Source: Pyrodictium delaneyi (GTDB lineage: Archaea; Thermoproteota; Thermoprotei_A; Sulfolobales; Pyrodictiaceae). Taken from it: a DNA stretch of 32,000 bases. Shown here piece after piece: positions 7,745 to 22,059 of this stretch. Positions within the stretch are counted from its first letter, which is position 1; every line of letters begins with the position of its first letter. The stretch is from the NCBI RefSeq assembly GCF_001412615.1, contig NZ_CP013011.1, forward strand, positions 54,931 through 86,930, in the 5' to 3' direction. The notes below the pieces were generated by a model. That model was not told where the DNA came from. It ran no database searches and saw nothing but the letters and a program-made list of their open reading frames with translations. The translations under genes and the position numbers were made by a program.

Positions 7745-7820
7745 TGGAGCCGCCGCCGGGATTCGAACCCGGGACCTCCGCCTTACCAGGGCGGCGCTCT
7801 GCCGGCTGAGCTACGGCGGC
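7745..7820 (-). tRNA. tRNA-Thr(GGU), intron-less, CCA encoded; integration target
   Basis: GCCGCCG-TA-GCTC-AGCCGGCA-GAGC-G-CCGCC-CTGGTAA-GGCGG-AGGTC-CCGGG-TTCGAAT-CCCGG-CGGCGGC-T-CCA. This is a perfect 76-nt cloverleaf. Confidence 0.9.
7776..7820. repeat. attL core (45 bp, equals nt 1-45 of tRNA-Thr)
   Basis: CTCCGCCTTACCAGGGCGGCGCTCTGCCGGCTGAGCTACGGCGGC, identical base for base to 22015-22059. The flanking bases differ (c/g on the left, g/a on the right). Confidence 0.95.
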
Positions 7821-8039
7821 GCTCCGGGGCGCCAGTGATACTATTACCTCGACTAAGTCTCTTGCGGTCAGAACTGAAAGCAGCTTGTCGCAGAGCGAGG
7901 CGCTGACGTTCCTCTTCCCGTTCGCTATCATGTTCGCGTAGGCGTTGCTTATCCCCAGCTCCTTCGGCTTAACCCCCCGAGTCTTCCACGCATAGAGAAA
8001 CAATGCCCTAGAGAGCTCGGGGCCCAGGATATCACACAT
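7776..8039 (-). CDS. integrase N-terminal fragment Int(N), HTH-like
   Basis: ATG at 8039, then 73 codons plus the 15 att-core codons (AAVAQPAERRPGKAE). In the integrated state the frame runs on through the tRNA to a stop at 7692 (track ORF 7692..8039). KELGISNAYANMIANGKRNVS looks like a helix-turn-helix. Confidence 0.7.
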
Positions 8040-8152
8040 GGACAGGTTACATCACCAAGAACCAGGGGCACGAGGAGTTGCATATTAGTGTTATATCAGA
8101 AGGCTTGAAGACTAGTACCGCCCCGGAGCCTATCTAGCACGGTGCGGAGAGG

Positions 8153-8707
8153 GTGCGGCCCGAGCCCGTGTATGCTGCTGTGCTGCTCCTGGGCCTGGCT
8201 CTGGGCTTTGCTGCTGGCCAGTTCACGGCACAGCCCAAGGAGATAGTGCGCGAGACCGTGCTAACGACCACCGTCACCGAGACCGTTACCGAGACGGTTA
8301 CAGTCACGCCGCCCAAACCGAGGATAGAGTGCAGGCCGCTACGGGTGCTCTACAGCAACACCAGCTTAACGCTTGGTGTCTACCTTGTAGAGGAGAAGAG
8401 CAATGTGAGCGGAATAAGCCTACCAACGATTAAGAAGAAGAGAGATGTTATCAGGCTGAGCTTTGAAGGTGGCGGCGAGGGCCAGAGGCTACACATCCAC
8501 ATAGACGCCTACCCCTCGCAGCTAAGGTGGCTGAGCATAGAGCTCTACAACCCAGCCGACCTGCTCGCCTACGTGGCTATGCCCAAGAGCAAGGACATAG
8601 TATTCAGCATACCCTACCCCGACAACTACACCCTAGTCATAGAGCCACAGAGCACAGTAAAGCTCTACAACGTCACAGTGTGGATAGAAGAGTGTCAGCA
8701 ACAATAG
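8153..8707 (+). CDS. membrane-anchored/secreted glycoprotein with Thr/Val-rich stalk
   Basis: GTG start. The N-terminal hydrophobic segment VYAAVLLLGLALGFAAGQFTAQ is followed by TTTVTETVTETVTVTPP. Four N-x-S/T sequons are present (NTS, NVS, NYT, NVT). Confidence 0.65.
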   Translation: MRPEPVYAAVLLLGLALGFAAGQFTAQPKEIVRETVLTTTVTETVTETVTVTPPKPRIECRPLRVLYSNTSLTLGVYLVEEKSNVSGISLPTIKKKRDVIRLSFEGGGEGQRLHIHIDAYPSQLRWLSIELYNPADLLAYVAMPKSKDIVFSIPYPDNYTLVIEPQSTVKLYNVTVWIEECQQQ

Positions 8708-8799
8708 CGATGTATGCCCACCCCCAGCCCAGCTTTTTACATCAACCCATCCCCCTCATTCCCCCATGCCATATACCCGCACTTTTTCGGAGACAAGCC

Positions 8800-8970
8800 A
8801 TGAGCTGTGAGCGGGAAACCGTACTGAAGCTATTAGTGAAGCTCCGTCGAGAGATAAGAGCACTTGACATAGATGAACAAGCTAAAGCGAAGGTTCTCGA
8901 AAAGATCAGAGCCTATGAGCTTGAGCTTGAGGAGCTGCTGGCCGAGGAGCCCGTGTTCTCTAGGAGCTGA
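8800..8970 (+). CDS. small coiled-coil protein (56 aa)
   Basis: The ATG at 8800 lies within track ORF 8527..8970, whose upstream part is a Pro/His-rich shadow. The protein reads MSCERETVLKLLVKLRREIRALDIDEQAKAKVLEKIRAYELELEELL. Its 3' end overlaps the convergent gene by 58 nt. Confidence 0.4.
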   Translation: MSCERETVLKLLVKLRREIRALDIDEQAKAKVLEKIRAYELELEELLAEEPVFSRS

Positions 8971-9266
8971 TACATGGCTCTAAGCAGGTCAGCTATCTTT
9001 TTGCCCTTCTCGGTCAGCTTGACGCATGTTACCTCTTTCTTCTTGCGCGGGTCGTAGCAGACACCACGCTCAACTAGGCCTAGATCCTCTAGGTGCCTAT
9101 AAGCATCATAGAATGTGCCCGAGCCAAGCTCTACTTGTAGCTCGTACTGTGGGATCTCATCCTTGCCGCCTTCTATGAAAGCACGTAGGAATTTCTCGAT
9201 GCTCTTAGCCTTGAAGATTATGAGCCCCACTTCCTTTTCCCGAATCCAGAGAGGGGGTGTATGCAA
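8913..9266 (-). CDS. winged-helix DNA-binding protein
   Basis: GSGTFYDAYRHLEDLGLVERGVCYDPRKKKEVTCVKLTEKGKKIADLL reads as recognition helix plus wing. The start is uncertain: TTG 9266 or an in-frame GTG 12 codons downstream. Confidence 0.6.
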   Translation of the reverse strand: MHTPPLWIREKEVGLIIFKAKSIEKFLRAFIEGGKDEIPQYELQVELGSGTFYDAYRHLEDLGLVERGVCYDPRKKKEVTCVKLTEKGKKIADLLRAMYQLLENTGSSASSSSSSSS

Positions 9267-9296
9267 ATTTCAGCTTTTTTCGTGGTAGTAGTCTGA

Positions 9297-9689
9297 CTAC
9301 CAGTCTCCCGCGCCCGCTCTCTCCTCTACTCTCTGCGTTTTGGCTAAACTAAGAGCATGTTCTAACAAGCTTTCTTTGAGCTCTCCATCCTTTAGAAGTC
9401 GGAGTAAAAGGATTCTAAGCAGCTCTAGCTCCTGGTAGAGATCTGGTCTTGCACGTTCTAGTTGCTCAAAGAACTTATTCACGCGTTCAAGTAGTGTCTC
9501 CCCGACTGGGGTCTTTAACCCACAATTAGGACATGTTGCGCGTTTTGCCGCTCCTCTATAACACCATGTATAGCCGCAGTGTTTACAGACCACCCATGTG
9601 CCTGGACACATTCCGTTACTATGCCCGCTGGCGTGGTTGGTGGTCAGACTACTACCACGAAAACCGCGCATTCCCGCTCCCGTTTTCAT
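9297..9689 (-). CDS. zinc-ribbon protein with C-terminal helical domain
   Basis: CKHCGYTWCYRGAAKRATCPNCG has the C-x2-C-x14-C-x2-C pattern. I trimmed track ORF 9297..9887 to ATG 9689 because its first 66 codons overlap the divergent RHH gene and its promoter. Confidence 0.6.
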   Translation of the reverse strand: MKTGAGMRGFRGSSLTTNHASGHSNGMCPGTWVVCKHCGYTWCYRGAAKRATCPNCGLKTPVGETLLERVNKFFEQLERARPDLYQELELLRILLLRLLKDGELKESLLEHALSLAKTQRVEERAGAGDW

Positions 9690-9756
9690 CTCTTTGCTGG
9701 CCTCTTTTTTCGGTTTCTGGATTCGGAGAAGGGCAATAAGCTTATATCTGATGCAA

Positions 9757-9774
9757 TCCGACTCTAGAATCGGA
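9757..9774. promoter_or_regulatory. near-palindromic operator candidate TCCGAcTCTAGAaTCGGA
   Basis: An 18-bp inverted repeat with one mismatched pair, centred on TCTAGA. It lies between a TATA-like CTTATAT (9741-9747) and the RHH start. A third half-site, ATTCGGA, lies at 9721-9727. Confidence 0.45.
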
Positions 9775-9788
9775 GCCCAGAGCCCGAG

Positions 9789-9986
9789 GTGAGAGGTGTG
9801 CCCCGACCCAAGATTGGAAGGCGTGTAACCGTCTCTCTCCCGCCCGAACTCTACGAGAAGATCGAGAACTACCGAAAGAAGGAGCATCTAACAGAGATGA
9901 GCGAGGCAATACGTCGCCTGCTCTACAAGGCTATTGAGATCGAAGAGGAGAGGGCTCGAGCGGTAGCTGCGGCAACTACTGCCTAG
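9789..9986 (+). CDS. ribbon-helix-helix (CopG/Arc-like) DNA-binding protein
   Basis: GRRVTVSLPPELYEKIENYRKKEHLTEMSEAIRRLLYKAI reads as beta strand, helix, helix. An alternative start is GTG 9798, preceded by GAGGTG. Confidence 0.75.
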   Translation: MRGVPRPKIGRRVTVSLPPELYEKIENYRKKEHLTEMSEAIRRLLYKAIEIEEERARAVAAATTA

Positions 9987-9993
9987 GGGGTGG

Positions 9994-10218
9994 ATGGGGA
10001 TGGTGCGGTTCACCTACGAGAGCCTCATCGACTACGTGTTCACGAAGATGAATAAGGCGATGGAGCTGCTGGACGAGGCTATGCAGGCGCTCTGGTGTCG
10101 CGGCAAGAGCGTAGACGAGTGCCTCAAGGGCATCGACAAGGCGTACAGCCTCATCGAGGACGCCAAGCTCGAGCTCAGCGAGGCAATATCAGAGATACTG
10201 GTCGTAATGGTGGGATGA
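9994..10218 (+). CDS. small helical hypothetical protein (74 aa)
   Basis: Track ORF with an ATG start, packed between two RHH genes. I recognise no motif. Confidence 0.5.
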   Translation: MGMVRFTYESLIDYVFTKMNKAMELLDEAMQALWCRGKSVDECLKGIDKAYSLIEDAKLELSEAISEILVVMVG

Positions 10219-10392
10219 ATGCGGGTCGTGACGTTCAAGGTGGATGAGGACTTCCTCGAAAAGCTAGACAGCTTCGCCCGCTTGAAGGGCGTGACCAGGA
10301 GCGAGGTCATCAGGAAGGCGTTGGAGCTGTACCTGAGGCTAGAGGATTGGAAGGTGCGCCCCGAGCCGAAGATAGTGAGGCTGCTGAGCTAG
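10219..10392 (+). CDS. second ribbon-helix-helix protein (57 aa, below ORF-track cutoff)
   Basis: Translated by hand: MRVVTFKVDEDFLEKLDSFARLKGVTRSEVIRKALELYLRLEDWKVRPEPKIVRLLS. The ATG directly abuts the upstream TGA (tgaatg). Confidence 0.7.
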   Translation: MRVVTFKVDEDFLEKLDSFARLKGVTRSEVIRKALELYLRLEDWKVRPEPKIVRLLS

Positions 10393-10404: not shown

Positions 10405-10911
10405 GTGCACCATATCTGCCTCTTCATAGTCGAGGCAGACTCTAGGGAAGAGGCTGAGGAGCTGGCGCTGTGTGCCTGGACGGGGGACACGGCCTACTGC
10501 GCTCCGAGGTGGTGGCCGCCGCCCGTCAGGGTGCTCTGCGGCGTCAAGTGGGACTATGCCACTACAGTAGGCAAGCTCAAGCTGTACGAGCGCCAGCTCA
10601 TAGAGGGCGGCGTCCCGCCGAGCTGCGCCCGCCGCATCATGGAGCGGCTGCCCAGGTGCCCCCACGAGTGGGACAGGGACGACGTCACCGTGGCCTGCCT
10701 GGACTTCCCTGCGAGGGTGTCAGACCTGGGCATAGACGCGGCCTACGCGATAGCAGCCGCGTTCAACGGCATGGGCGACATCTGCCTCAACATCCTCTAC
10801 AGGGAAGACACGGCAATCATCTACAGCAGCGGCCTGTGGAAGCTCCGCAAACTGCTAAACACCAGGAGCCACGACAAGCTATGGCTAGTCATAGTAGACG
10901 CCCACGAGTAG
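10405..10911 (+). CDS. hypothetical protein (168 aa)
   Basis: GTG start 13 nt after the RHH stop. I preferred it over the overlapping Arg/Pro-rich frame 10470..10919 and the antisense ORF 10339..10665 because of its balanced amino-acid composition. Confidence 0.55.
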   Translation: MHHICLFIVEADSREEAEELALCAWTGDTAYCAPRWWPPPVRVLCGVKWDYATTVGKLKLYERQLIEGGVPPSCARRIMERLPRCPHEWDRDDVTVACLDFPARVSDLGIDAAYAIAAAFNGMGDICLNILYREDTAIIYSSGLWKLRKLLNTRSHDKLWLVIVDAHE

Positions 10912-10915
10912 AGGG

Positions 10916-11218
10916 GTGACACCCGTGGCGGCTGAGCGTCTCCTGGCGTGGCTGGACAAGAACTCTGACAGGCTGCTGCTGGTGGGGGTGCTCTGGCTCG
11001 CCGCCGTCATGACGCTACAGCTGGCGCTCACAGCGCTTGGGCACAAGACCATCGAGGACGTGGCCAGGGAAGAGGTGCGGGAATGGCTGGTGACGCATAA
11101 CATCACCGTGGTGGTGCAGCAGCCGAGGACCGTCGAGCTGCCAGAGAACCTGTTCTACCTGCTGGTGTTTGCGCTACTCTTCATGCCACTAGTAGGGGCA
11201 ATACTCCGAGACAGGTGA
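10916..11218 (+). CDS. small membrane protein (2 TM)
   Basis: Hydrophobic segments LLLVGVLWLAAVMTLQLALTAL and LFYLLVFALLFMPLVGAIL. Confidence 0.55.
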   Translation: MTPVAAERLLAWLDKNSDRLLLVGVLWLAAVMTLQLALTALGHKTIEDVAREEVREWLVTHNITVVVQQPRTVELPENLFYLLVFALLFMPLVGAILRDR

Positions 11219-11224: not shown

Positions 11225-11758
11225 GTGGCGCTGGACGCTAGGCAGCTCAAGGCCCGGTACCAGCAGAAGTGGCGTATCGCTGCAAGGCGGGAGCTTGCTG
11301 TGCTGAATCTGCTGAACATCCTGCTGCCGGACGGCTACGTGGCTATAGCGGCTGGGCTCGGCACGGGTACGACGGACTTCATCGACCGGAGCTATGGGAG
11401 CCCGCTGGACGCGTTCGACCTGGTGGTGCTCCGGGGCATGGACGCTGTGGCGTTCATAGACGTTACGGGGTTCTGGAGCGAGCAGGCCGCCAGGACGGTA
11501 AACGGCGGCAAGGAGCTCTGCGTGGGCGCGTGGAAGCTCTGGAAGGCCCAGCGCTTCGGCCTGCTCGACCGCGCCTGGATAGTCCACGTCGCCGACAAGC
11601 GCGTCAGCCTACGCTGGCTCCCCCTAGCAGCCCTCGAGGCCGAGAAGCACATGGCACGCCTAGTCCACGGCGAGCGCCCATACTACTGCCTACCCCAGCA
11701 GAAGTGGCGCGACACAAGCGCGTTCATCCGCTGGCTCACTGCCCAGGCCCACGCCTAG
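11225..11758 (+). CDS. hypothetical protein (177 aa), possible nuclease-like fold (weak)
   Basis: I preferred it over the Arg-rich shadow frame 11269..11859. The pattern ERELAVL...LDAFDLVV...AFIDVTG...VGAWK is only loosely PD-(D/E)xK-like. Confidence 0.5.
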   Translation: MALDARQLKARYQQKWRIAARRELAVLNLLNILLPDGYVAIAAGLGTGTTDFIDRSYGSPLDAFDLVVLRGMDAVAFIDVTGFWSEQAARTVNGGKELCVGAWKLWKAQRFGLLDRAWIVHVADKRVSLRWLPLAALEAEKHMARLVHGERPYYCLPQQKWRDTSAFIRWLTAQAHA

Positions 11759-11889: not shown

Positions 11890-12162
11890 ATGCGCTTTGT
11901 GGATAAGATTGGTGTGCTGCTTGAGCTCGCGGAGAGGAGCGATGGCTGCATCGAGCAGCGAGAGCTGGCGCATGAGCTGGAGAAGCGTGGACTCAACCCG
12001 GTGACTGCTAAGAGCAGTGCTAGCCGGCTCGTTAACAAGCTACTGTCCGCCGGGCTGGCCGTGGAGTGTTCGCCAAGCCCCAGGGGCTCCAAGCGCATAT
12101 ACGTAGAGCCTGACATCTTGCGCACACTCATCCAAGTATGCAAGCTATGCAAGGAAGTCTAA
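11890..12162 (+). CDS. winged-helix (MarR-like) DNA-binding protein
   Basis: IEQRELAHELEKRGLNPVTAKSSASRLVNKLLSAGLAVECSPSPRGSKRIYV reads as HTH plus wing. Confidence 0.65.
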   Translation: MRFVDKIGVLLELAERSDGCIEQRELAHELEKRGLNPVTAKSSASRLVNKLLSAGLAVECSPSPRGSKRIYVEPDILRTLIQVCKLCKEV

Positions 12163-12176
12163 CAGGGTGGCCGGCA

Positions 12177-12740
12177 ATGGGTAGGCATGTGTTGTACTCT
12201 ATATTCTACCGCTGTGGTGATGGCCGGGAGCGGCTGCGTTGTGTGGACGAGGCGGGGTTCCGGCGGGCGCTGGCTGGTATCGCTGAGGCTGGCTGCCGGG
12301 TGGAGTTCATCCACGACGACGTGCTGCCGCGCGAGCCATGGCTCGCCGACTACGTGCTCGCGCTGCTACACTATGCTGGTAGGCCGCTGAGGCTCTACCA
12401 GGTGGTGAGGCTGCTGAGCGTCTTCGCGATGCTGGCGGGGCTCGAGGACGAGCTAGAGGTCTATGACACCGGCAAGGGCCCCTGGAGCACCGAGGTAGAG
12501 ACCACGGTGTACGAACTGGTGTACACCGGGTACCTGGAGTCCACGAAGCGGGGCTACGCGCTCACCGAGGCCAAGGGCGTCGACGAGGCACGCTGCGCGG
12601 CGGCGGTGATAGAGGCCTGGAGCAGCGACGAAGCCAAACTCCTCAAACGCCTAGCCGAGAAAACCAGGCGGATGAACAGGGCCCAGTTCAACGCGTTCAT
12701 AGAGAAACTACGGCCAGTGAGGGCGGCCACCCATGTATGA
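12177..12740 (+). CDS. hypothetical protein (187 aa)
   Basis: Track ORF 12138..12740 trimmed to ATG 12177, which lies after the upstream stop at 12162. The C-terminal half (GPWSTEVETTVYELVYTGYLESTKRGYALT) looks winged-helix-like. Confidence 0.5.
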   Translation: MGRHVLYSIFYRCGDGRERLRCVDEAGFRRALAGIAEAGCRVEFIHDDVLPREPWLADYVLALLHYAGRPLRLYQVVRLLSVFAMLAGLEDELEVYDTGKGPWSTEVETTVYELVYTGYLESTKRGYALTEAKGVDEARCAAAVIEAWSSDEAKLLKRLAEKTRRMNRAQFNAFIEKLRPVRAATHV

Positions 12741-12885
12741 GCTTGACCCCGAGGCCATGGAGATGGCGGTGTACTGGCTCTTCGACCACGAGCTCTGGGA
12801 GCTGCTCAGCGACATAGAAGCCGCCAAGCGCGACGCAGAATGGCTCAAGAAAATCCTCAGAAAGAGGGTGGCCGGGGATGGCTAG
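12733..12885 (+). CDS. small helical protein (50 aa, below cutoff)
   Basis: Translated by hand: MYELDPEAMEMAVYWLFDHELWELLSDIEAAKRDAEWLKKILRKRVAGDG. The ATG overlaps the upstream stop (atgtatga). Confidence 0.4.
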   Translation: MYELDPEAMEMAVYWLFDHELWELLSDIEAAKRDAEWLKKILRKRVAGDG

Positions 12886-13078
12886 TCGTCTTGCACGTTT
12901 CTTGGGGCGTGTCCTCAGGCCCCTGGAGCTCCTTGGGGAGATAGAGCGCCGGGCCCGCTGCATACGCTGGGAGCAGGAGTGCCGTTTCTACGGCAAGAAC
13001 TGCCTCGAGTATAAGCTCACATGCCACGATACAAAACCGCTGGGCCGGCTCCTGAGGGGGCTGCTCCGCAGAGGCTAG
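12878..13078 (+). CDS. small Cys-containing basic protein (66 aa)
   Basis: Its start overlaps the previous stop (ATGGCTAG). It carries four Cys in CIRWEQECRFYGKNCLEYKLTC. I preferred it over the antisense ORFs 12697..12963 and 12857..13114. Confidence 0.4.
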   Translation: MASRLARFLGRVLRPLELLGEIERRARCIRWEQECRFYGKNCLEYKLTCHDTKPLGRLLRGLLRRG

Positions 13079-14581: not shown

Positions 14582-14586
14582 GACTC

Positions 14587-15976: not shown

Positions 15977-15986
15977 GGTGCACCAC

Positions 15987-16268: not shown

Positions 16269-16285
16269 GCCCGTCACCCCGAGCT

Positions 16286-16522
16286 CTAGATTATCGCCTT
16301 CCCGAGGCGGTAGAGCAGCCACCCCGCTATCACCCCGAGAACCACCATCCAGACCGTGTTGGCGTCTATGCTCAGCGTGTAGTGGTGCTCCGGAGTCAAG
16401 GTTACCGTCGTGGTTACGGTTACGGTGGTCATGTTCGTGGTGTTGGTGTCGGTCTGGGCGAGGGACAGGAGAGCCACCACCGGGGCTATCCGGGGGATAC
16501 GTAGGCGCCACAGCTGCAACAC
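16286..16522 (-). CDS. small secreted/TM-anchored protein (78 aa), distant member of the AQT family
   Basis: An in-frame GTG at 16522 gives MLQLWRLRIPRIAPVVALLSLA-QTDTNTTNMTTVTVTTTVTLTP...VWMVVLGVIAGWLLYRL. The track ORF extends to 16609, but that extra part lies in the promoter region. Confidence 0.6.
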   Translation of the reverse strand: MLQLWRLRIPRIAPVVALLSLAQTDTNTTNMTTVTVTTTVTLTPEHHYTLSIDANTVWMVVLGVIAGWLLYRLGKAII

Positions 16523-16673: not shown

Positions 16674-16919
16674 GTGCGCATCCTATCCCGGCTCAAGGAG
16701 AAGATAGACGAGAAGAAGATAGCCAGGAAGATAGCCGAGCACCCCGAGGCAGTGGCGGCTCTAACCCTCGTGGCTCAGACAACTACAAACGACACCGCAA
16801 CCACGACAACAACTGTAGACCTAAGCCCGATGGTCAGCATAATCAGCAGCGTCATCCCGCTATTCGTGCTAGTAGCAGTCATAAAGATACTCTTCAAGAG
16901 CTTCAAGGACGTAGCATAG
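16674..16919 (+). CDS. small signal-peptide/TM protein, paralog 1 (81 aa)
   Basis: GTG start preceded by GAGGTG. Charged N-terminal helix ILSRLKEKIDEKK, then AVAALTLVA-QTTTNDTATTTTT, then C-terminal TM VIPLFVLVAVIKILFKSFKDVA. Confidence 0.7.
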   Translation: MRILSRLKEKIDEKKIARKIAEHPEAVAALTLVAQTTTNDTATTTTTVDLSPMVSIISSVIPLFVLVAVIKILFKSFKDVA

Positions 16920-16934
16920 CGGGGCTGAGCAGTA

Positions 16935-17141
16935 ATGGCCAGCATCAACCGAATCAAGGAGAGAGTAAAGAGCCTGGCCAGCAGGCTGGGCCCGCCTGCC
17001 GCCGGCGCCGCCGTCCTAGTCGCGCAGACCGACAGCATGACAACCACAATATCTCTGGTAAACAGTGTCATCCCGGTGCTAGTGCTGGTGATGGTTCTGA
17101 AGTTACTGTTCTCCAGCTTCAAGGAGATAAGCAAGGACTAG
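16935..17141 (+). CDS. small signal-peptide/TM protein, paralog 2 (68 aa)
   Basis: MASINRIKERVKSLASR...AAVLVA-QTDSMTTT...VIPVLVLVMVLKLLFSSFKEISKD. It is collinear with paralog 1. Confidence 0.7.
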   Translation: MASINRIKERVKSLASRLGPPAAGAAVLVAQTDSMTTTISLVNSVIPVLVLVMVLKLLFSSFKEISKD

Positions 17142-17143
17142 GG

Positions 17144-17362
17144 GTGGGACACGTGTTCAAGCAGCTCAAGGAGAGACTGAGGGCGGGTTTTCGCAGGGCG
17201 GCCCCAGCCGCCGCAGCGGCCCTAGCACTGGCGCAGACGAGCACTTCAACATCTGGCTACGACGCAGTCGGCACGGTAGTCACTATGCTCATAGCCGTGG
17301 CGCTGCCAGCGCTGATACTCGTCAGCATCGTAAAGATGATTATGAACCATATACGCGCCTAG
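17144..17362 (+). CDS. small signal-peptide/TM protein, paralog 3 (72 aa)
   Basis: The start is GTG 17144 or GTG 17153. (MGH)VFKQLKERLRAGFRR...AAALALA-QTSTSTS...LPALILVSIVKMIMNHIRA. It forms the C-terminal end of track ORF 16667..17362, the rest of which is a shadow. Confidence 0.65.
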   Translation: MGHVFKQLKERLRAGFRRAAPAAAAALALAQTSTSTSGYDAVGTVVTMLIAVALPALILVSIVKMIMNHIRA

Positions 17363-17549: not shown

Positions 17550-17657
17550 ATGGGGTTTTTCGAGCCCCTTCTCCTCGGCGCCCTGGTCTACATGGTTATC
17601 CTGTTCTCGATGGTGATGCGGGTTGGCGGTGAGGATGAGGAGTCTGGCGGTGGCTAG
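17550..17657 (+). CDS. possible 35-aa single-TM peptide
   Basis: Translated by hand: MGFFEPLLLGALVYMVILFSMVMRVGGEDEESGGG. It overlaps the start of the glycoprotein gene by 23 nt. It is short, so the call is weak. Confidence 0.3.
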   Translation: MGFFEPLLLGALVYMVILFSMVMRVGGEDEESGGG

Positions 17658-20091
17658 CCTGATTGCCCTCGCTGTGCTACTGCCCCTAGCGAGCTCGCAG
17701 ACCACGATGCTCCAGAACGTCTACTACCTGGACGTAGTCCAGGGACATTGGTACGCAGTATACACCGGCGGCACTCCATACAGAGTCTTCTACGTGGACG
17801 GCAGCGGGCAGACAGTCTATGTGACGTCGTACTGGTGGGACGCGAACCAGAGCTACATCATATTCCAGGCACCCATCACCGGTAAGGTGTATCTGCGCGA
17901 GGAGCCGAGCCTCACACTATCAACACTCAGCACCACGGGATGGTGGAACTCCATCTCTGCGAGCGTGACAATCACGACTAATAGCACGTTTCCGAACGGA
18001 ACATACACAATGACGTTTAATCCGGCAAGCATAACGTATGATGGGAAGCAGCTAAAGATTGGATACGCGGCGAGCATCACGAAGGGATGGTATGGCCGGC
18101 TCGATGTCAACACTAAGTATTTCTTCGACTTCCAGTCATCAATAACGATAGACGATAGCAGCCTGAGCGTGTATGCGCGCTACGTGACAAGCTACTACTG
18201 CTATCCGTCACCGACGTACTGTTGGGAGCAGCGGCCTGTCTACAGCTCGCCAATCAATGGCGTGGCCGTGAACAGACCCGACCCGACGCAGTGTAACGTA
18301 GTTGCAAAATATTCGTATGTCCATGGACTACTGACTGTCACTGCAACAATCACGAACTATGGTGGAAGTTGTGAAACAGGTCAGAACGAGTACATATTGA
18401 CACTATATACAACTAAGACAGTTGTTGTGAACGACTCGTTTACAGCGGACAATGGAAACACAGTTCATATTGTTGACAGTCTCACTTACGCGGACATAGT
18501 TGCAACCAGTAGTAGCGCGACGTACTATCTCCAGAGCAGCCAGTGGAGCATAACGTTCCCTAACAGCACAGACATTGATAAGCCGCTCGTGCTTCTGCTA
18601 CCAAGCAACATAAGCATGAGCAACCCGGCGGCCTACATCAAGAGTCCGCTAACGGCGTGGGCTGGCGTCGTGGCTAGGAGCGCTGGCAACTACACGCTGC
18701 TGGTCTTCAGCCCACCGGCCATGTACAACACTAGCAGCGTCAGCCTAGACCTGGTGGCAAACTATCCCTACCGCTACGCGATACCACCAATCAACGTGAG
18801 ATATGCAACCAGATTGGACATAGGCAGCATCCTGCCGGTATCGGGGAGCTTCAGCGTTGTGAACGGAGTAGCTGTGATAGACGGCAACATAAGCCTCGGG
18901 CAGCTCATAGGCTCAACGCTGCTGCTCCGCGGCGACCTAAGCAACGCCACCATCACAGGCGCAGAGGCCGGCAACATCACCATAGACGGCACCACGTGGC
19001 TAGCGCTCTACGTCTACGACACTAACGCCATGATAAGCGGGCATGCGGAGATAGCCGAGCTCATAGTCCTCGAGAACACCAGGACTATGATGGACTACAC
19101 TGCCAGCATGACGGCGGGCTGGGACATTAGACCGTATGAAGTAGTCTCGGTAGAGGCTATCAGCTCGGCGAGCGTCTCCGGGAGCTGGGCTTATAGGATA
19201 CCGGTCTACATCACGCTGTCGTATCTCCCGCAGAGCCTCACGGATACTGGCTACTTGTTCAGGCTGGAGCTGCCCATCGGCGACTGGATTAGAGCGGGGC
19301 TGCTATCACCTGCGCTCGAGGACTTGCTCATAGTGGACAGCTCGATGCAGCCGCTGCCATTCGCCATCATAAAGAACGACGGTGAGAAGGCCGTGGTATA
19401 CGTGCGCTACACCAGGCCGCTGCTCAGCCAGTCCATCGTGATATACATCCTGCTGAAGAACGAGCAGCTCTGGGGCACCGGGAACAGCTTCGCCAGCCTC
19501 GTAGCCACGTTCGACCGTATCAATCCCGCCGAGGGAGTGGACGACCTGGGGTGGAGCTACGGCTACAGCTACATGGTCTACAACGCCTGGCTGTTCATAG
19601 GCAACGCTACCATTGCAGCCGGGCCTACCACATTCGACTTCGTGGCCTGGGAGCCGTCCAGCGGGCTCATCTACGAGCAGCACGGCAGCCTGGTTACACA
19701 AAACATCTCAGTGACCCCCGCGAGCGGCGACGAGGTGCTGGTGCTCTTCAGCAACAATTATCAAGATGCTCTCGTGTATGTCGATGGCAAACCATGGTAT
19801 AGTATACCACTGGCAAGCTTCAACATGACATCGCCGGCGTACTACGTCAAGTGGAAGAGCGCCGGAGCCGTCTACGCTGGCAAGATGATACCATACTCGT
19901 ACGCAATCGGGCAGATTGTAGGCTCGCTGGAGCAGCCAGCGAAGGTGGAGATACAGCAGCCGGTGCCGCAGCAGCCGCAGCAGAGCGCGAGCATGTGGGA
20001 CTTGCTCGCCGCGATGGCACCGCTGTTCCTGCTAGCCATCATAGTGAGGCTGATGCAGAACCCGCCAGCGCCAGCCCCCTACCCCAGATAG
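17635..20091 (+). CDS. large virion-surface-type glycoprotein (818 aa): signal peptide, 14 sequons, C-terminal TM anchor
   Basis: Track ORF 17623..20091. ATG 17635 gives MRSLAVASLIALAVLLPLASS-QTT. I counted 14 N-x-S/T sequons by hand. The C-terminus is a QQPVPQQPQQ linker, then the TM segment MWDLLAAMAPLFLLAIIVRLM, then a Pro-rich tail. Confidence 0.85.
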   Translation: MRSLAVASLIALAVLLPLASSQTTMLQNVYYLDVVQGHWYAVYTGGTPYRVFYVDGSGQTVYVTSYWWDANQSYIIFQAPITGKVYLREEPSLTLSTLSTTGWWNSISASVTITTNSTFPNGTYTMTFNPASITYDGKQLKIGYAASITKGWYGRLDVNTKYFFDFQSSITIDDSSLSVYARYVTSYYCYPSPTYCWEQRPVYSSPINGVAVNRPDPTQCNVVAKYSYVHGLLTVTATITNYGGSCETGQNEYILTLYTTKTVVVNDSFTADNGNTVHIVDSLTYADIVATSSSATYYLQSSQWSITFPNSTDIDKPLVLLLPSNISMSNPAAYIKSPLTAWAGVVARSAGNYTLLVFSPPAMYNTSSVSLDLVANYPYRYAIPPINVRYATRLDIGSILPVSGSFSVVNGVAVIDGNISLGQLIGSTLLLRGDLSNATITGAEAGNITIDGTTWLALYVYDTNAMISGHAEIAELIVLENTRTMMDYTASMTAGWDIRPYEVVSVEAISSASVSGSWAYRIPVYITLSYLPQSLTDTGYLFRLELPIGDWIRAGLLSPALEDLLIVDSSMQPLPFAIIKNDGEKAVVYVRYTRPLLSQSIVIYILLKNEQLWGTGNSFASLVATFDRINPAEGVDDLGWSYGYSYMVYNAWLFIGNATIAAGPTTFDFVAWEPSSGLIYEQHGSLVTQNISVTPASGDEVLVLFSNNYQDALVYVDGKPWYSIPLASFNMTSPAYYVKWKSAGAVYAGKMIPYSYAIGQIVGSLEQPAKVEIQQPVPQQPQQSASMWDLLAAMAPLFLLAIIVRLMQNPPAPAPYPR

Positions 20092-20094: not shown

Positions 20095-20099
20095 TTTTT
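20095..20099 (+). terminator. oligo-T (T5) immediately after the glycoprotein stop
   Basis: tag-cgc-TTTTT-g. Archaeal terminators are typically oligo-T tracts, but a single T5 is weak evidence. Confidence 0.3.
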
Positions 20100-20139
20100 G
20101 CACTATCCGCTGCTCTCTACACTAGAGGGTGCACCAGAT

Positions 20140-20427
20140 ATGGCAAGGAATGTCTATCTGGGGCGCGACTGCCTAAGCCCGCCATGCGTAGATGACCGTG
20201 GCCGGAGAGGCCTAGACCGCATCTCGGAAGTCAAGGACATAGCCGACCGCATCATAGAGGACTGTGAGGCTGGACGCATATCCTATAGAACAGCAATGGC
20301 AAGGATGAATCTCCTAGAGCTCGTGGTCAGCAGGGACAGCAGCTTCTCGGTGGAGCAGCGGCTGAAGGCCCGCCGGCTCATAGACCGCAAGAGAGAGGAG
20401 CTCATGGAGAAGTGTGGCGGTGAGTAA
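20140..20427 (+). CDS. hypothetical soluble protein (95 aa)
   Basis: Track ORF 20098..20427 (TTG start) trimmed to ATG 20140 (MARNVYLGRDCLSPPC...). Confidence 0.5.
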   Translation: MARNVYLGRDCLSPPCVDDRGRRGLDRISEVKDIADRIIEDCEAGRISYRTAMARMNLLELVVSRDSSFSVEQRLKARRLIDRKREELMEKCGGE

Positions 20428-20430
20428 GCC

Positions 20431-21102
20431 GTGCTGGAGAGCCTGGTGGCCGGCACCCTCGCTTACCTCTTTTTGCGTAGGGACGTTCCCTCTACGCTCA
20501 TTCCGTATCTTGCTTCCTTCGCAGCATTCCTGGATCAAGTCACTACAGTAGCAGCTATCAGTCTAGGCGCCCACGAGACTAATCCGTTCGTGCGCCTGTT
20601 CCTCGCGAGCCCCACACTCTTCTTCGCACTCTCGGCAGCCAAGATTCTGGTAGCGTGGCACATAGCCAGGCGGAGCCCAAGACTCGGGCTCTGGCTAGCT
20701 CTAGTCTTCCTAGCAGCCGCAGCGATAAACGCCCACAACGCCTACGCGCTCTACAACAATACCTCAACCATAGAGCTTGGCGGCCACACGCTCCAGGTCT
20801 ACATAGCTGACACAGAAAGGGAGAGGGAGTGCGGCTACTACTGCTACGACCACCCGGCGATAGCCTTCATCTGGCCAGGGGGGACACCGCCGGAAGTAAC
20901 CTTCACCATGGAAGGCCTGGACTACCCGCTGCTCCTAGTCCACGTCAGGGACTGCACAGTCATAGACGTGCTGGAGATGCAGCCCGGCGAGAAGTATAGA
21001 ATAGATAATGTAGGGCCACAAGACTGGTTCATCGAGGTAAAGAACGCGAGCCTAGAGATAGAGCCTGGCGAAAATGTTTGGGGGCTAGTCTGCGAGGGCT
21101 AG
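20431..21102 (+). CDS. fusion of a 4-TM domain (HETNP motif) with a DUF192-like domain
   Basis: The N-terminal half has hydrophobic helices and AHETNPF. The C-terminal LQVYIADTERERECGY...AIAFIWPG...TFTMEGLDYPLLLVHV...VIDVLEMQPG follows the DUF192 pattern (vAdt..eR..G ... mlF.f ... fwM.n...PLd..f), recalled from memory. Confidence 0.6.
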   Translation: MLESLVAGTLAYLFLRRDVPSTLIPYLASFAAFLDQVTTVAAISLGAHETNPFVRLFLASPTLFFALSAAKILVAWHIARRSPRLGLWLALVFLAAAAINAHNAYALYNNTSTIELGGHTLQVYIADTERERECGYYCYDHPAIAFIWPGGTPPEVTFTMEGLDYPLLLVHVRDCTVIDVLEMQPGEKYRIDNVGPQDWFIEVKNASLEIEPGENVWGLVCEG

Positions 21103-21981
21103 GACTACGGCCCGGCGCGGCGGCTTCCTCTGCAACTCCCGAAACTTTTCGGGCCTCTCTAGCCCCTCTTCCAGCATCTTAAGGAGCTCGGGATAGCTCG
21201 CGTCTGCAAGCTGCCTGAGATTCTCGTAGGCCAGGTCGCCCACTTTGAGGCTCCCTAGCCTAGAGTGGTAGAACTCGCACACGTCACGGCCAAGTACACG
21301 GCGGCATACCTGGCGGTGCAGCTTTCTCAGCTTGGACGCCTCGAAGCCGAAGTCCCTGGTGAGCCGCCTCGTAAAGGTCTTGTAGCCTATGACCGTGCCC
21401 GCGTGCTCCTCTATAGCCTCTAAGAGTCTGGCCGGGAAGTAGATGTAGTCGCAGCGCTTCTTGCCACGCTTCCAGAAGAGCCCATATCTCGCCACGCCGT
21501 CGGGGAGAATCTCTAGTCTAGAGGGATCGTACTCGGCTATCATCCGGAGCACCTCGTCTATCCTGGCGCCGCTATAGTATAGTATGTAGAGTGATAGCCG
21601 CCATTCGGGCCTAACATGCTCTGCCACGTCCCTCAGGGCCGAGACTAGCTCTGCCCAGTCTATCTCCACGCGCTCCGACACCTTGCTCTCCGTCTTGCGC
21701 TTCAGCAGTGAGAGATAACGCTCCTTGGCGTCCTTGCTCAGTCTCCCAGTCTCGAAGAGAAACTGCACCAGCTTCCTGGCGGCCTTGTAGGCCTTGTCGT
21801 TGCCGAGGGCCTCTAGGGCCTTCTCCTCGTCCAGGTAGTCCAGCTTCTCCAGCGCCGAGACGTAGTCGTTCGCGGTGCGCTCCTCTATACGCTCCTTCTC
21901 TATGAGCCACCGCCTAAAGGACTGGAGCAGGCCCGAGTGCAGCGATATAACAGGCAGGCCCGATGACCCCGGCTCGACCAT
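21085..21981 (-). CDS. tyrosine recombinase, C-terminal part Int(C) of a split SSV-type integrase
   Basis: SAM-like N-domain (FRRWLIEKERIEERTANDYVSALEKL). Catalytic motif order: YYSGARIDEVLRM (Arg), FWKRGKKRCDYIYF (Lys), KLRK, FYHSR and LAY (Tyr). The frame is open upstream through the att core to 22083. Confidence 0.85.
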   Translation of the reverse strand: MVEPGSSGLPVISLHSGLLQSFRRWLIEKERIEERTANDYVSALEKLDYLDEEKALEALGNDKAYKAARKLVQFLFETGRLSKDAKERYLSLLKRKTESKVSERVEIDWAELVSALRDVAEHVRPEWRLSLYILYYSGARIDEVLRMIAEYDPSRLEILPDGVARYGLFWKRGKKRCDYIYFPARLLEAIEEHAGTVIGYKTFTRRLTRDFGFEASKLRKLHRQVCRRVLGRDVCEFYHSRLGSLKVGDLAYENLRQLADASYPELLKMLEEGLERPEKFRELQRKPPRRAVVLALAD

Positions 21982-22014
21982 GCGCCTTGCGCGATATAAC
22001 AGGTCAAGAACTTG

Positions 22015-22059
22015 CTCCGCCTTACCAGGGCGGCGCTCTGCCGGCTGAGCTACGGCGGC
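22015..22059. repeat. attR core (orphan 5' half of tRNA-Thr)
   Basis: Identical to 7776-7820. On the minus strand it is followed by non-tRNA sequence (caagttcttgacc...). Confidence 0.95.

What the first reader, a model, noticed from the sequence alone, without database searches (positions are those of the whole stretch)
7776..22059. A 14.2-kb G+C-rich provirus-like element integrated in tRNA-Thr(GGU), with no recognisable capsid or replicase
**Boundaries.** A perfect 45-bp direct repeat (7776-7820 = 22015-22059) brackets 14,194 bp. The left copy is nt 1-45 of an intact tRNA-Thr gene and the right copy is an orphan 5' half.

**Composition.** The interior is compositionally foreign. My hand counts of single 60-nt lines give 67% G+C at 10441, 75% at 12241, 58% at 15001 and 63% at 19501. 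Outside the element they give 50% at 1, 42% at 3481, 35% at 24421 and 60% at 24001.

**Content.** It encodes no housekeeping function. It carries a split integrase, 2 RHH proteins, at least 2 wHTH proteins, a Zn-ribbon protein, a P-loop NTPase, about a dozen predicted membrane or secreted proteins, an 818-aa glycoprotein and a tandem small-protein family. These fall into three tightly packed modules: plus strand 9789-13078, minus strand 16522-13099, and plus strand 16674-21102.

**Interpretation.** Abundant RHH/wHTH/Zn-finger regulators, a tRNA target and a partitioned integrase are typical of crenarchaeal viruses. I could not recognise a known major capsid protein type, a Rep/primase/MCM, or any fusellovirus core gene by eye. 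It may therefore be an undescribed virus lineage with an enveloped or pleomorphic particle built from small membrane proteins plus one spike.
Basis: partly seen in the sequence, partly recalled or inferred. Interest (0 to 1): 0.85.

Follow-up and report, generated by a model that had tools for sequence, protein, structure and literature searches.

The report
Guttavirus-like provirus in Pyrodictium tRNA-Thr

Summary
A perfect 45-bp repeat (nt 1-45 of tRNA-Thr(GGU)) brackets a 14.2-kb G+C-rich block. Joining the ends restores one 397-aa SSV-type integrase gene. Two related Pyrodictiaceae genomes have the same flanking genes without the block.

The "P-loop NTPase" is the DnaA-like ATPase of fuselloviruses and guttaviruses. 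It lies in a syntenic B277-A154-B251 block. The element also has a D244-type nuclease and a DUF5658 protein.

At least three complete circular relatives (11-14.6 kb; at least two carry an intact integrase) and about ten fragments occur in hot-spring and vent metagenomes. They share 3-5 small "signal peptide-Q-T-transmembrane" units, sometimes fused as polyproteins, plus an ~800-aa C-terminally anchored glycoprotein. No fusellovirus VP1, VP3 or VP4 homologue was detected.

Best reading: a temperate, probably enveloped, guttavirus-like virus, the first reported for Pyrodictiaceae. No virions and no excised circle have been shown. I rate it a new variant of a known kind, of moderate interest.

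The parts
7745..7820 (-). Intact tRNA-Thr(GGU). Its first 45 nt (7776-7820) are attL.
   Evidence: ARAGORN; Rfam tRNA, 72.6 bits; repeat.
7821..8039 (-). Int(N): the N-terminal part of the split SSV-type integrase. The ORF runs on into the tRNA as far as 7692. It has an HTH-like N-terminus.
   Evidence: Joining it to 22014->21085 across one att copy gives an uninterrupted 397-aa ORF. Pfam HTH_3 hit is sub-threshold.
8153..8707 (+). 184-aa predicted secreted protein with an N-terminal hydrophobic segment, a TVTETVT repeat and 4 sequons. No homologues were found.
8800..8970 (+). 56-aa protein, homologue of APOV1 orf7-57 (56% identity). The longer ORF that starts at 8527 is probably a spurious extension.
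   Evidence: tblastn; translation.
8913..9266 (-). 117-aa winged-helix regulator, homologue of APOV1 orf6-94 (MarR-like).
   Evidence: 40% identity, E=1e-18; phrog_11046 transcriptional regulator, E=4e-6; Pfam PadR and HxlR hits are sub-threshold.
9297..9887 (-). Zn-ribbon protein (CxxC...CxxC). The real start is probably internal to this ORF.
   Evidence: Pfam DUF5817 and Zn_ribbon_3 hits are sub-threshold.
9789..9986 (+). RHH (CopG-type) DNA-binding protein.
   Evidence: PF01402, E=1e-6, above the curated cut-off.
9994..10218 (+). 74-aa acidic protein of unknown function. It is the last gene before the point (10219/10220) where the strain Hulk copy of the element switches to unrelated sequence.
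10219..10392 (+). Second RHH protein, similar to small regulators of SSV19 and ASV1.
   Evidence: PF01402, E=5e-9; tblastn.
10405..11218 (+). Two genes of unknown function: a 168-aa protein (10405-10911) and a 100-aa two-TM protein (10916-11218).
   Evidence: No Pfam, PHROG or PDB hit; TM segments.
11225..11758 (+). Viral/archaeal nuclease of the SSV1 D244 family. The closest match is the AGV1 nuclease (41-42% identity).
   Evidence: PF12187, E=3e-6; phrog_9634, E=8e-22; tblastn.
11890..13078 (+). Four small genes: a 90-aa possible wHTH, then 200-aa, 50-aa and 66-aa proteins. No significant homologues.
13099..14010 (-). DnaA-like AAA+ ATPase, the homologue of SSV1 B251, APOV1 orf19 and APSV1 orf12.
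   Evidence: tblastn to 39 archaeal virus records; phrog_5484, E=1e-26; hhalign 99.1% against fusellovirus B251.
14034..14420 (-). 128-aa A154/A153-like protein, homologue of APOV1 orf18-132. It lies directly upstream of the ATPase gene, as in APOV1 and fuselloviruses.
   Evidence: BLAST to APOV1, E=4e-10; hhalign 87.5% to the family cluster; 91.1% to fusellovirus A153/A154.
14417..14590 (-). 57-aa two-TM protein.
14587..15261 (-). 224-aa B277-like membrane protein with N- and C-terminal TM segments; homologue of APOV1 orf17-201.
   Evidence: Family HMM against APOV1 orf17, E=2e-11, and against SSV2/ASV1 B277; hhalign 85-86%; phrog_6692, E=0.003, which is the B277 family.
15272..16519 (-). Three genes: a 234-aa membrane glycoprotein with the signal 'LLLVGQTTT' (15272-15976), a 93-aa basic protein (15987-16268), and a 77-aa 'SLAQT' protein with a C-terminal TM (16286-16519).
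   Evidence: Gene calls; homologues found only in L008; motif.
16674..17362 (+). Three tandem small pre-proteins of 81, 68 and 72 aa (16674-16919, 16935-17141, 17144-17362). Each has a basic N-region, a short hydrophobic stretch ending in A-Q-T, a Thr-rich segment, one TM helix and a basic tail. They are homologues of APOV1 orf12-85.
   Evidence: Family HMM against APOV1 orf12, E=9e-12. The reciprocal phmmer search hits only this family.
17623..20091 (+). Large (822/794-aa) beta-rich glycoprotein with a signal-like N-terminus, 14 sequons and a C-terminal TM anchor. It is the putative spike and the signature gene of the element family.
20098..20427 (+). 109-aa protein conserved downstream of the glycoprotein gene; homologue of APSV1 orf31-111 and APOV1 orf14-121.
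   Evidence: Family HMM, E=5e-10 and E=3.5e-6; tblastn.
20431..21102 (+). 223-aa membrane protein. The N-terminal DUF5658 domain matches the DUF5658 proteins of SSV1 (7122-7430), SSV2 and APOV1 orf20. It has an extra C-terminal domain.
   Evidence: PF18902, E=6e-6; BLAST; hhalign 91%; HMM.
21085..22014 (-). Int(C): the catalytic part of the integrase. The ORF with its own ATG spans 21981->21085 (298 aa); the coding sequence continues up to attR.
   Evidence: PF16795 Phage_integr_3, E=6e-19. Invariant R239, K274 and R318, plus an offset-aligned Tyr, all lie in this part. It is annotated 'integrase', Pyrde_0096.
22015..22059 (.). attR: the orphan copy of tRNA-Thr nt 1-45.

Best explanation
This is a provirus of Pyrodictium delaneyi. 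It belongs to a small, previously undescribed group of 11-15-kb circular dsDNA elements related to Aeropyrum pernix ovoid virus 1 (Guttaviridae) and, more distantly, to Fuselloviridae.

**Integration (shown from sequence).** The 14,239-bp circle carries a 45-bp attP inside codons 74-88 of its own 397-aa SSV-type tyrosine recombinase gene. Recombination with the identical attB (nt 1-45 of tRNA-Thr(GGU)) inserted the genome. This split the integrase gene into Int(N), next to the intact tRNA, and Int(C), next to an orphan tRNA half. Int(C) keeps its own ATG and all the catalytic residues.

**Regulation and replication (inferred from family knowledge).** RHH, wHTH and Zn-ribbon regulators in the variable left arm control lysogeny. 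The conserved B277-like, A154-like and DnaA-like ATPase block, together with the D244-type nuclease, drives replication and packaging by recruiting the host replisome, as proposed for fuselloviruses and APOV1.

**Particle (inferred).** The three small proteins enter the membrane by a signal peptide that is cut at the invariant A-Q-T. This leaves ~40-47-aa glycosylated single-pass membrane proteins. Together with the ~800-aa C-terminally anchored glycoprotein (spike), they would form the lipid-containing shell of a budding, guttavirus-like virion.
For: **Integration and foreign origin.**
- Exact 45-bp repeat on the tRNA 5' half.
- The integrase ORF is restored by circularisation.
- PF16795 match and conserved R/K/R/Y residues.
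- Foreign G+C and GC3.
- Empty sites: L027 has a full tRNA-Thr 139 bp from the MetE-like gene. L028 has all the left- and right-flank genes contiguous without the element.

**Viral kinship.**
- DnaA-like ATPase, A154-like 91% and B277-like 85%, nuclease, DUF5658.
- Nine APOV1 homologues: orf6, 7, 12, 14, 17, 18, 19, 20 and 21.

**A real, conserved family.**
- Circular contigs L007 (133-bp terminal overlap, intact 377-aa integrase), L009 (127-bp overlap, intact integrase) and L017 (29-bp overlap; no integrase homologue found by the searches run), plus L008 and about ten fragments. All share the glycoprotein, the small proteins, the B277-like protein, the ATPase, DUF5658 and the g109 protein.
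- 49 glycoprotein clusters among 1.84 billion representative proteins.

**Other points.**
- The Q-T signal motif is invariant in 26 units. In A+T-rich members the units are fused as polyproteins.
- The Hulk and Su06 copies are 99.96% identical, then diverge abruptly at 10219/10220. This is modular exchange typical of viruses.
- No Pfam or PHROG match to a conjugation, plasmid-Rep or housekeeping family.
Against: - No protein here has been shown to be a virion component.
- No homologue of any characterised capsid protein was found. hhalign of the small units against VP1/VP3 gives <=4.4%; the glycoprotein against VP4 gives <1%. PHROG VP1/VP3 families were never hit.
- Which APOV1 ORF is its 10.5-kDa major capsid protein could not be established from the literature held. 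The link between the small proteins and the capsid is therefore an inference.
- The AlphaFold model of the glycoprotein is poor (pLDDT 50.6) and its fold matches are meaningless.
- Relatives were not found in IMG/VR.
- The reconstituted 397-aa integrase is absent from 15 billion predicted proteins, so no assembled excised circle of this element is on record.
- The split integrase could leave the element trapped.
Confidence: 0.7

Rival explanations
1. It is a defective or satellite element. It integrated by the same mechanism but is now trapped by the split integrase, or it depends on a helper virus for particles, as pSSVx depends on SSV2. pSSVx also carries B251 and A154 homologues.
For: - B251 and A154 are the very genes shared with the satellite pSSVx (PMC9608457).
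- No recognised capsid protein.
- No excised form on record.
- This element and L008 lack the 2-unit small-protein gene and the c9/c10/c13 genes found in the circular relatives.
Against: - All ORFs are intact and tightly packed.
- It carries its own 11 membrane or secreted proteins, including the family's signature glycoprotein and small proteins. Satellites of the pSSVx type have none of these.
- L008, from an independent metagenome, has the same reduced gene set with 50-95% amino-acid identity, which implies selection.
- APOV1 and APSV1 are inducible despite having the same split integrase (PMC5882108).
Confidence: 0.15
2. It is an integrative plasmid or a vesicle-transmitted element ('plasmid vesicle' type), not a true virus. 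The membrane proteins would decorate host-derived vesicles rather than build a capsid.
For: - P. delaneyi Hulk vesiculates heavily (PMC5556600).
- No capsid-protein homologue was found.
- Relatives are not classed as viral in IMG/VR.
Against: - Nine genes are shared with a virus whose virions have been imaged.
- No Pfam or PHROG match to a plasmid Rep, conjugation ATPase or partition family.
- The SSV-type integrase, the DnaA-like block and the D244 nuclease are the hallmark set of fusello- and guttaviruses.
Confidence: 0.1
3. It is an entirely unconnected, new virus lineage with no relation to any described family.
For: The glycoprotein and most left-arm genes have no homologue in 50,697 virus records, PHROGs, Pfam or the PDB.
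Against: Significant homology to APOV1 (9 genes) and to fusellovirus core genes (integrase, B251, A154, B277, DUF5658/C102, D244), with conserved gene order.
Confidence: 0.03
4. It is an ordinary host genomic island for cell-envelope biogenesis, and the repeat is incidental.
For: Many predicted membrane and secreted proteins.
Against: - The integrase is reconstituted exactly across the repeat.
- The block is absent from the syntenic site in relatives.
- No hit to a cellular envelope family.
- Free circular relatives carry intact integrases.
Confidence: 0.02

Closest known systems
[quoted passage not shown]
   Same: - Circular dsDNA of nearly the same size (13,769 bp against 14,239 bp) and G+C (56.5% against 57.7%).
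- A provirus in a tRNA gene of a marine hyperthermophilic crenarchaeon.
- SSV-type integrase of ~399 aa, split on integration.
- Homologues of orf6 (wHTH), orf7, orf12 (small membrane protein with the same basic N-region, 'GQTTTT' motif and TM), orf14, orf17 (B277-like), orf18 (A154-like), orf19 (DnaA-like), orf20 (DUF5658) and orf21 (integrase).
- The order orf17-18-19 is conserved.
   Different: - Only 9 of 21 APOV1 genes are shared, at 25-56% identity.
- APOV1 has one small Q-T unit where this element has three (up to five in relatives).
- The ~800-aa glycoprotein has no detectable APOV1 counterpart; orf9-678 and orf16-391 were tested.
- The target is tRNA-Thr, using the 5' half. APOV1 targets tRNA-Leu, and its att encodes T-arm-like sequence.
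- DUF5658 and the integrase gene are arranged differently.
- Morphology is unknown here.
Fuselloviridae (SSV1, SSV2, SSV6, SSV19, ASV1)
   Same: - Integration mechanism, with attP inside the integrase gene and a tRNA target.
- The B277-A154-B251 block in the same order.
- D244-type nuclease, DUF5658 (C102-type) protein, and RHH and Zn-finger regulators.
- Genome size of 13-17 kb.
- A large C-terminally anchored glycoprotein gene followed by a small conserved gene, and tandem small hydrophobic protein genes.
   Different: - No detectable VP1/VP3 homologue. The small proteins here have one TM helix behind a cleavable-looking signal, not the two-helix hairpin of VP1.
- No VP4, A82, A92, C166, B115 or B129 homologue.
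- The hosts are neutrophilic marine Pyrodictiaceae or relatives, not Sulfolobales.
Aeropyrum globular virus 1 (AGV1, LC208019)
   Same: A temperate circular dsDNA virus of a marine hyperthermophile with an SSV-type integrase that carries a tRNA-derived att. Its nuclease is the closest homologue of the one here (41-42% identity). Its authors noted best hits to 'Pyrodictium sp.' proteins.
   Different: Only the nuclease and the integrase are shared (the family DUF5658 profile also gives a marginal hit, E=0.002). Its 28.5-kDa major virion protein, its ATPase and the rest have no counterpart here.
Pleolipoviridae (haloarchaeal pleomorphic viruses)
   Same: A conceptually similar predicted particle: a membrane vesicle with a small membrane protein and one C-terminally anchored spike, plus an NTPase. 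This rests on my own knowledge and was not tested here.
   Different: No sequence link was found in any search. The hosts, integrases and replication genes differ.

Membership tests
SSV-type (partitioning) integrase elements | attP lies inside the integrase gene, so integration splits the gene into Int(N) and Int(C) flanking the element. | tested here: met
   Joining 8039->7821, one att copy and 22014->21085 gives a continuous 397-aa ORF.
SSV-type (partitioning) integrase elements | Tyrosine-recombinase catalytic domain of the archaeal phage integrase family. | tested here: met
   PF16795, E=6e-19. R239, K274 and R318 are invariant with SSV1 R211, K243 and R281. A Tyr lies one residue out of register with the Tyr column shared by all ten aligned integrases; I take it as the catalytic Tyr.
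SSV-type (partitioning) integrase elements | The target is a tRNA gene, and an intact tRNA is regenerated. | tested here: met
   Intact tRNA-Thr(GGU) at attL and an orphan half at attR.
Guttaviridae (as represented by APOV1) | Circular dsDNA genome of about 14-20 kb (PMC5882108). | tested here: met
   14,239 bp after circularisation. Relatives with terminal overlaps are 11.1-14.5 kb.
Guttaviridae (as represented by APOV1) | Gene content shared with the only sequenced member. | tested here: inconclusive
   9 of 21 APOV1 genes have homologues. 12 do not, and the signature glycoprotein is absent from APOV1. No sequence-based demarcation criterion exists for the family.
Guttaviridae (as represented by APOV1) | Enveloped ovoid or droplet-shaped virions; the family is defined by morphology. 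| not testable with these tools
   Needs induction and electron microscopy.
Guttaviridae (as represented by APOV1) | Homologue of the 10.5-kDa APOV1 major capsid protein. | not tested
   The ORF that encodes the APOV1 MCP is given only in a thesis and in a figure not held here. Candidates by mass are orf2, orf8, orf12, orf13 and orf20. orf12 and orf20 have homologues here.
Fuselloviridae | VP1-type major capsid protein (a two-helix hydrophobic hairpin), usually with VP3. | tested here: not met
   hhalign of the small-unit profile against VP1/VP3 gives <=4.4%. The VP1/VP3 PHROGs (11172, 5402) are not hit by any of 17 family members.
Fuselloviridae | VP4 end-filament protein. | tested here: not met
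   hhalign <1% against both VP4 types. tblastn against all phage and archaeal virus records finds no match.
Fuselloviridae | Core genes B251, A154, the integrase and (in >90% of genomes) B277. | tested here: met
   99.1%, 91.1% and 85% hhalign probabilities, in conserved order. Core-gene definitions are from PMC9608457.
Fuselloviridae | Other absolute-core genes: A82, A92, C166 and B115. | tested here: not met
   No family cluster matched A82, C84/A92 or C166 above 10%. No profile of B115 was built; a tblastn of all ORFs of five fuselloviruses (E<=1e-4) found no match to it.

The most novel reading that the evidence does not exclude
This provirus and its metagenomic relatives represent a new family-level group of enveloped viruses of hyperthermophilic Thermoproteota, the first known for Pyrodictiaceae (hosts that grow at 90-105 C). 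On this reading the virion shell is not built from a conventional capsid protein. It is built from a set of 3-5 signal-peptidase-processed, ~45-residue glycosylated single-pass membrane proteins, encoded as a polyprotein in some members, plus one ~800-aa spike. Because APOV1 orf12 is a homologue, the same principle would explain the so far uncharacterised guttavirus particle.
Probability: 0.35. Interest if true: 0.7.

Novelty: new variant of a known kind. Interest (0 to 1): 0.55.

Why it matters
**No virus is known for this host family.** I know of no described virus for Pyrodictium or any Pyrodictiaceae (own knowledge). In the literature searched, the strain Hulk genome paper never mentions a virus, provirus or integrase, and no paper held links Pyrodictium to APOV1 or Guttaviridae. 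The public annotation of strain Su06 calls these genes hypothetical, apart from one integrase fragment.

**It gives APOV1 relatives.** Guttaviridae rests on a single sequenced genome, APOV1. This element and its circular metagenomic relatives supply a set of genomes for comparison. They define a conserved core: the B277-like, A154-like and DnaA-like block, DUF5658, the small Q-T membrane proteins and a g109-type protein. They also tie guttaviruses to fuselloviruses by gene order as well as by shared genes.

**It yields testable predictions.**
- A 14,239-bp circle with a defined junction sequence.
- Mature small proteins that begin at or next to the invariant Gln-Thr.
- An ~800-aa glycoprotein on the particle surface.

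**It is experimentally accessible.** P. delaneyi is cultivable, so this could become a virus-host system near the upper temperature limit of life.

Tried and rejected
1. **Nucleotide similarity to known viruses.** Megablast of the whole element against 50,697 virus records found nothing.
2. **Glycoprotein and polyprotein against isolates.** tblastn of the glycoprotein (this element and the L009 version) and of the L017 polyprotein found nothing.
3. **Small proteins as VP1/VP3.** They look alike by eye: a Thr-rich loop, a 'PLF' motif in the helix and a 'K.FK' tail. The link was rejected on hhalign (<=4.4%) and on PHROG membership. A weak hit to phrog_2186 'virion structural protein' (3 of 17 members, E>=0.011) is not the VP1/VP3 family, and I treat it as chance.
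4. **Glycoprotein as VP4 or as APOV1 orf9/orf16.** No support.
5. **AGV1 as closest relative.** This lead came from its paper, which mentions Pyrodictium hits. Only the nuclease and the integrase are shared (marginal DUF5658 hit).
6. **Structure route.**
   - The AlphaFold2 model of the glycoprotein, from a 5-sequence alignment, has mean pLDDT 50.6.
   - Foldseek against BFVD gave TM scores of about 0.1 to lectin/DUF2341-type proteins, which is unusable.
   - PDB sequence searches with the glycoprotein profile, the 200-aa and 168-aa proteins and the ATPase were empty.
7. **IMG/VR scan for relatives.** None found.
8. **Evidence of an excised circle.** The exact-sequence look-up shows it is not among 15 billion proteins.
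9. **Identity of the APOV1 MCP.** The primary paper, the bipartite-network paper and the review are not held.
10. **Partial tRNAs in relatives' integrase genes.** ARAGORN finds none, as expected for half-sites.
11. **Large archaeal provirus survey (PMC13573593).** Its main text does not mention Pyrodictium, and its supplements are not held.

Full report
**1.

The window has one long direct repeat, 45 nt and exact, at 7776-7820 and 22015-22059. ARAGORN and Rfam both place an intact tRNA-Thr(GGU) at 7745-7820 on the minus strand. The left repeat is therefore tRNA nt 1-45, and the right copy is an orphan 5' half.

- The interior is 57.7% G+C, against 45.3% and 50.5% in the flanks.
- Third-position G+C is 73-87% in element genes and 39-58% in flank genes.
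- The host genome averages 53.9% (PMC5556600), so the contrast is real but is exaggerated by these rather A+T-rich flanks.

**2. Source.**

Exact-protein look-ups place the genes in Pyrodictium delaneyi.

- The strain Hulk contig NCQP01000006.1 starts at window position 9898.
- The same proteins also occur on a 2,023,836-bp contig, which is the size of the Su06 type-strain genome. There they carry locus tags Pyrde_0087 to Pyrde_0096 (PMC5556600). The window is therefore almost certainly Su06.
- All genes are annotated "hypothetical protein" except Int(C), which is annotated "integrase".
- The Hulk genome paper never mentions a virus, provirus or integrase.

**3. It is an insertion made by an SSV-type integrase.**

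Joining the two ends through a single att copy gives an uninterrupted 397-aa ORF. It matches Pfam "archaeal phage integrase" (E=6e-19). The att sequence encodes residues 74-88 (AAVAQPAERRPGKAE).

In an alignment with the integrases of APOV1, AGV1 and five fuselloviruses, R239, K274 and R318 are invariant. A Tyr lies one residue out of register with the Tyr column shared by the others, and I take it to be the catalytic Tyr. All four lie in the Int(C) ORF, which has its own ATG.

The left flank carries beta-CASP RNase, RpoG, Lsm, archaeosine TGT, PAC2 and TGT-C2/PUA genes. The right flank carries MetE-like and Trm1 genes, among others. In a Pyrodictiaceae MAG (L028) the same genes are contiguous, with tRNA-Thr among them and no element.

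In a closer relative (L027; MetE-like protein 91% identical) a full-length tRNA-Thr lies 139 bp from the MetE-like gene. My computed empty-site model aligns across the junction.

**4. What the genes are.**

Pfam and PHROGs confirm two RHH proteins. They give only sub-threshold support for the wHTH and Zn-ribbon proteins.

- **P-loop NTPase (13099-14010).** It is the DnaA-like AAA+ ATPase shared by Fuselloviridae (B251), APOV1 and APSV1, among others. The evidence is tblastn to 39 archaeal virus records, phrog_5484 E=1e-26 and hhalign 99.1%.
- **128-aa upstream neighbour.** It matches APOV1 orf18 (E=4e-10). As a family profile it matches fusellovirus A153/A154 at 91%.
- **224-aa membrane protein, the next but one gene upstream.** It matches APOV1 orf17 (E=2e-11) and the B277 homologues of SSV2 and ASV1. 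hhalign gives 85-86%. It also hits phrog_6692, which is the B277 family.
- **Other fusellovirus-type genes.** 11225-11758 is a D244-type nuclease (PF12187; phrog_9634 E=8e-22). The N-terminus of 20431-21102 is DUF5658, as in an SSV1 gene, an SSV2 gene and APOV1 orf20.

According to the SSV1 minireview, B251, A154 and the integrase are absolute-core fusellovirus genes, and B277 is present in more than 90% of genomes. B251 and A154 are implicated in replication and packaging (PMC9608457). The statement "no replicase, no fusellovirus core gene" is therefore wrong.

**5. The closest known virus is APOV1.**

Nine of the 21 APOV1 ORFs have homologues: orf6 (wHTH, 40% identity), orf7 (56%), orf12, orf14, orf17, orf18, orf19, orf20 and orf21.

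- The orf17-18-19 order is conserved.
- Genome size and G+C are nearly the same (13,769 bp and 56.5%, against 14,239 bp and 57.7%).
- Both are proviruses in tRNA genes of marine hyperthermophiles (PMC5882108).
- AGV1, which I pursued because its paper reports "Pyrodictium sp." best hits, shares only the nuclease and the integrase.

**6. A family of free circular relatives.**

The 822-aa protein has few but clear homologues. Contigs that carry them include:

| Contig | Length | Terminal overlap | G+C | Note |
|---|---|---|---|---|
| L007 | 14,605 bp | 133 bp | 39% | intact 377-aa integrase |
| L009 | 11,202 bp | 127 bp | 37% | intact integrase |
| L017 | 14,098 bp | 29 bp | 45% | no integrase homologue found |
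| L008 | 8,975 bp | none | 52% | same gene order, 50-95% protein identity |

About ten fragments were also found.

Clustering all ORFs gives this conserved core:

| Core gene | Loci |
|---|---|
| glycoprotein | 14 |
| small proteins | 13 |
| B277-like | 10 |
| DUF5658 | 6 |
| A154-position gene | 6 |
| ATPase | 5 |
| g109-type | 5 |

An exhaustive HMM search of 1.84 billion representative proteins finds only 49 glycoprotein clusters, about 20 of them full length. The family is rare but diverse. None of its members was found in IMG/VR.

**7. The small proteins.**

The three tandem genes (81, 68 and 72 aa) belong to a family of units with one architecture:

- a basic N-region;
- a short hydrophobic stretch ending in L-[AG]-Q-T;
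- a Thr/Ser-rich segment, often with sequons;
- one TM helix containing a conserved Pro;
- a basic "FK.F" tail.

Q-T is nearly invariant in 26 aligned units: T in all, Q in at least 90%. A+T-rich members encode about five units, fused as one 3-unit and one 2-unit protein in which each TM is followed by the next signal-like stretch.

The same [AG]-Q-T signature follows the N-terminal hydrophobic segment of the 234-aa and 77-aa proteins. A related S-S-Q-T follows that of the large glycoprotein.

I infer cleavage by host signal peptidase next to the Q, giving ~40-47-aa type-I membrane glycoproteins, with the polyproteins processed in the same way. This is inference from sequence, not shown.

The family profile hits APOV1 orf12-85 at E=9e-12. 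APOV1 orf12, used alone as a query, hits only this family among about 1,700 ORFs. Homology to fusellovirus VP1/VP3 is not supported (<=4.4% hhalign; VP1/VP3 PHROGs never hit).

**8. The glycoprotein.**

It has a signal-like N-terminus, 14 sequons, predicted all-beta content and a C-terminal TM helix. This is the layout expected of a membrane-anchored spike.

- It has no detectable relation to VP4, APOV1 orf9 or orf16, the PDB or any isolate.
- The structural model is too poor to use (pLDDT 50.6). The Foldseek matches have TM scores of about 0.1.

**9. Signs of recent activity.**

The Hulk copy is 99.96% identical to the window from 10220 to the right end of the element and beyond. The first 328 bp of the Hulk contig, left of 10220, are unrelated. 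They encode a different small acidic protein in place of the 74-aa one.

An abrupt switch at a gene boundary between strains of 99.77% ANI is what modular recombination between co-circulating viruses produces. That reading is inference.

No assembled circular junction of this element exists in the protein collection.

**10. Verdict.**

The integrated mobile element is certain. A virus of the APOV1/fusellovirus assemblage is the best explanation (confidence about 0.7). The alternatives are a defective or satellite element (about 0.15) and a plasmid or vesicle element (about 0.1).

It fails the Fuselloviridae test, having no VP1 or VP4. It cannot be formally placed in Guttaviridae, a family defined by morphology with one sequenced member.

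I rate it a new variant of a known kind, with interest 0.55. It is valuable as the first candidate virus of Pyrodictiaceae and as the key to a conserved guttavirus-like gene core. It is not the orphan lineage first proposed.

Noticed in passing
window 1215-1371 (-): Rfam finds a 157-nt tRNA here (32.3 bits), which implies an ~80-nt intron. ARAGORN's 90-nt 'tRNA-Pro(CGG)' at 1216-1305 covers only part of it and is probably a mis-call. tRNA-like 5'-half sequence lies at about 1320-1370.
   Followed up: partly
window 10219/10220; L004 13786-14113: The strain Hulk copy of the element is 99.96% identical to the right of 10220. To the left it is completely different and encodes another 61-aa acidic protein instead of the 74-aa one. 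The Hulk contig ends 328 bp further on. This suggests module exchange in the regulatory arm between two strains of 99.77% ANI.
   Followed up: partly
window 7821-7890 and 22060-22130: Because att is the 5' half of the tRNA, the element lies upstream of the intact tRNA-Thr. The ancestral upstream motif GGCCGTAAGGGATTTACC, conserved in the empty site L027, now precedes only the orphan half. The intact tRNA is preceded by integrase-coding sequence that contains GGTAATAGTATCAC about 20-30 nt upstream. The element may have to supply the tRNA promoter.
   Followed up: no
L007 8680-9784; L009 2999-3960; L017 3713-4694; L014, L019, L021: In A+T-rich relatives the small Q-T units are fused into a 3-unit and a 2-unit protein, each TM being followed by the next signal-like stretch. 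In P. delaneyi, L008 and the L016/L018/L020 fragments the first units are separate genes. P. delaneyi and L008 lack the 2-unit gene.
   Followed up: partly
window 17363-17622: A 260-bp stretch with no plus-strand gene lies between the third small-protein gene and the glycoprotein gene. This is exactly where relatives carry the 2-unit small-protein gene. The public annotation places a 121-aa minus-strand ORF (17340-17705) here, which may be spurious.
   Followed up: no
L010 9401-10864; L011 4168-5640: Two archaeal genome contigs (a 'Sulfolobales archaeon' MAG and Desulfurococcaceae archaeon AG1) encode ~490-aa proteins related to the N-terminal part of the glycoprotein (E=5e-58 and E=2e-45). 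No other element gene lies nearby. These may be a cellular homologue or part of a different element.
   Followed up: partly
L008 5728-7659: The closest relative carries an extra 643-aa gene with a weak Laminin_G_3 hit, inserted between the glycoprotein gene and the g109-type gene. It is absent from the P. delaneyi element.
   Followed up: no
L027 1-74: The 42-kb Logan contig that shows the empty site begins inside tRNA-Thr, 2 nt short of its 3' end. An assembly break exactly at this tRNA could mean variable occupancy of the site in that sample.
   Followed up: no
window 7821-9788: The left arm of the element has lower G+C (52.6%) than the rest (57-62%). It holds the genes most similar to APOV1 orf6 and orf7. 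It lies within the part (left of 10220) that differs between the two P. delaneyi strains.
   Followed up: no
window 1501-2500: A G+C trough (36%) in the left flank covers a 281-aa ORF (1451-2296, minus strand) with no Pfam hit, next to the intron-containing tRNA.
   Followed up: no
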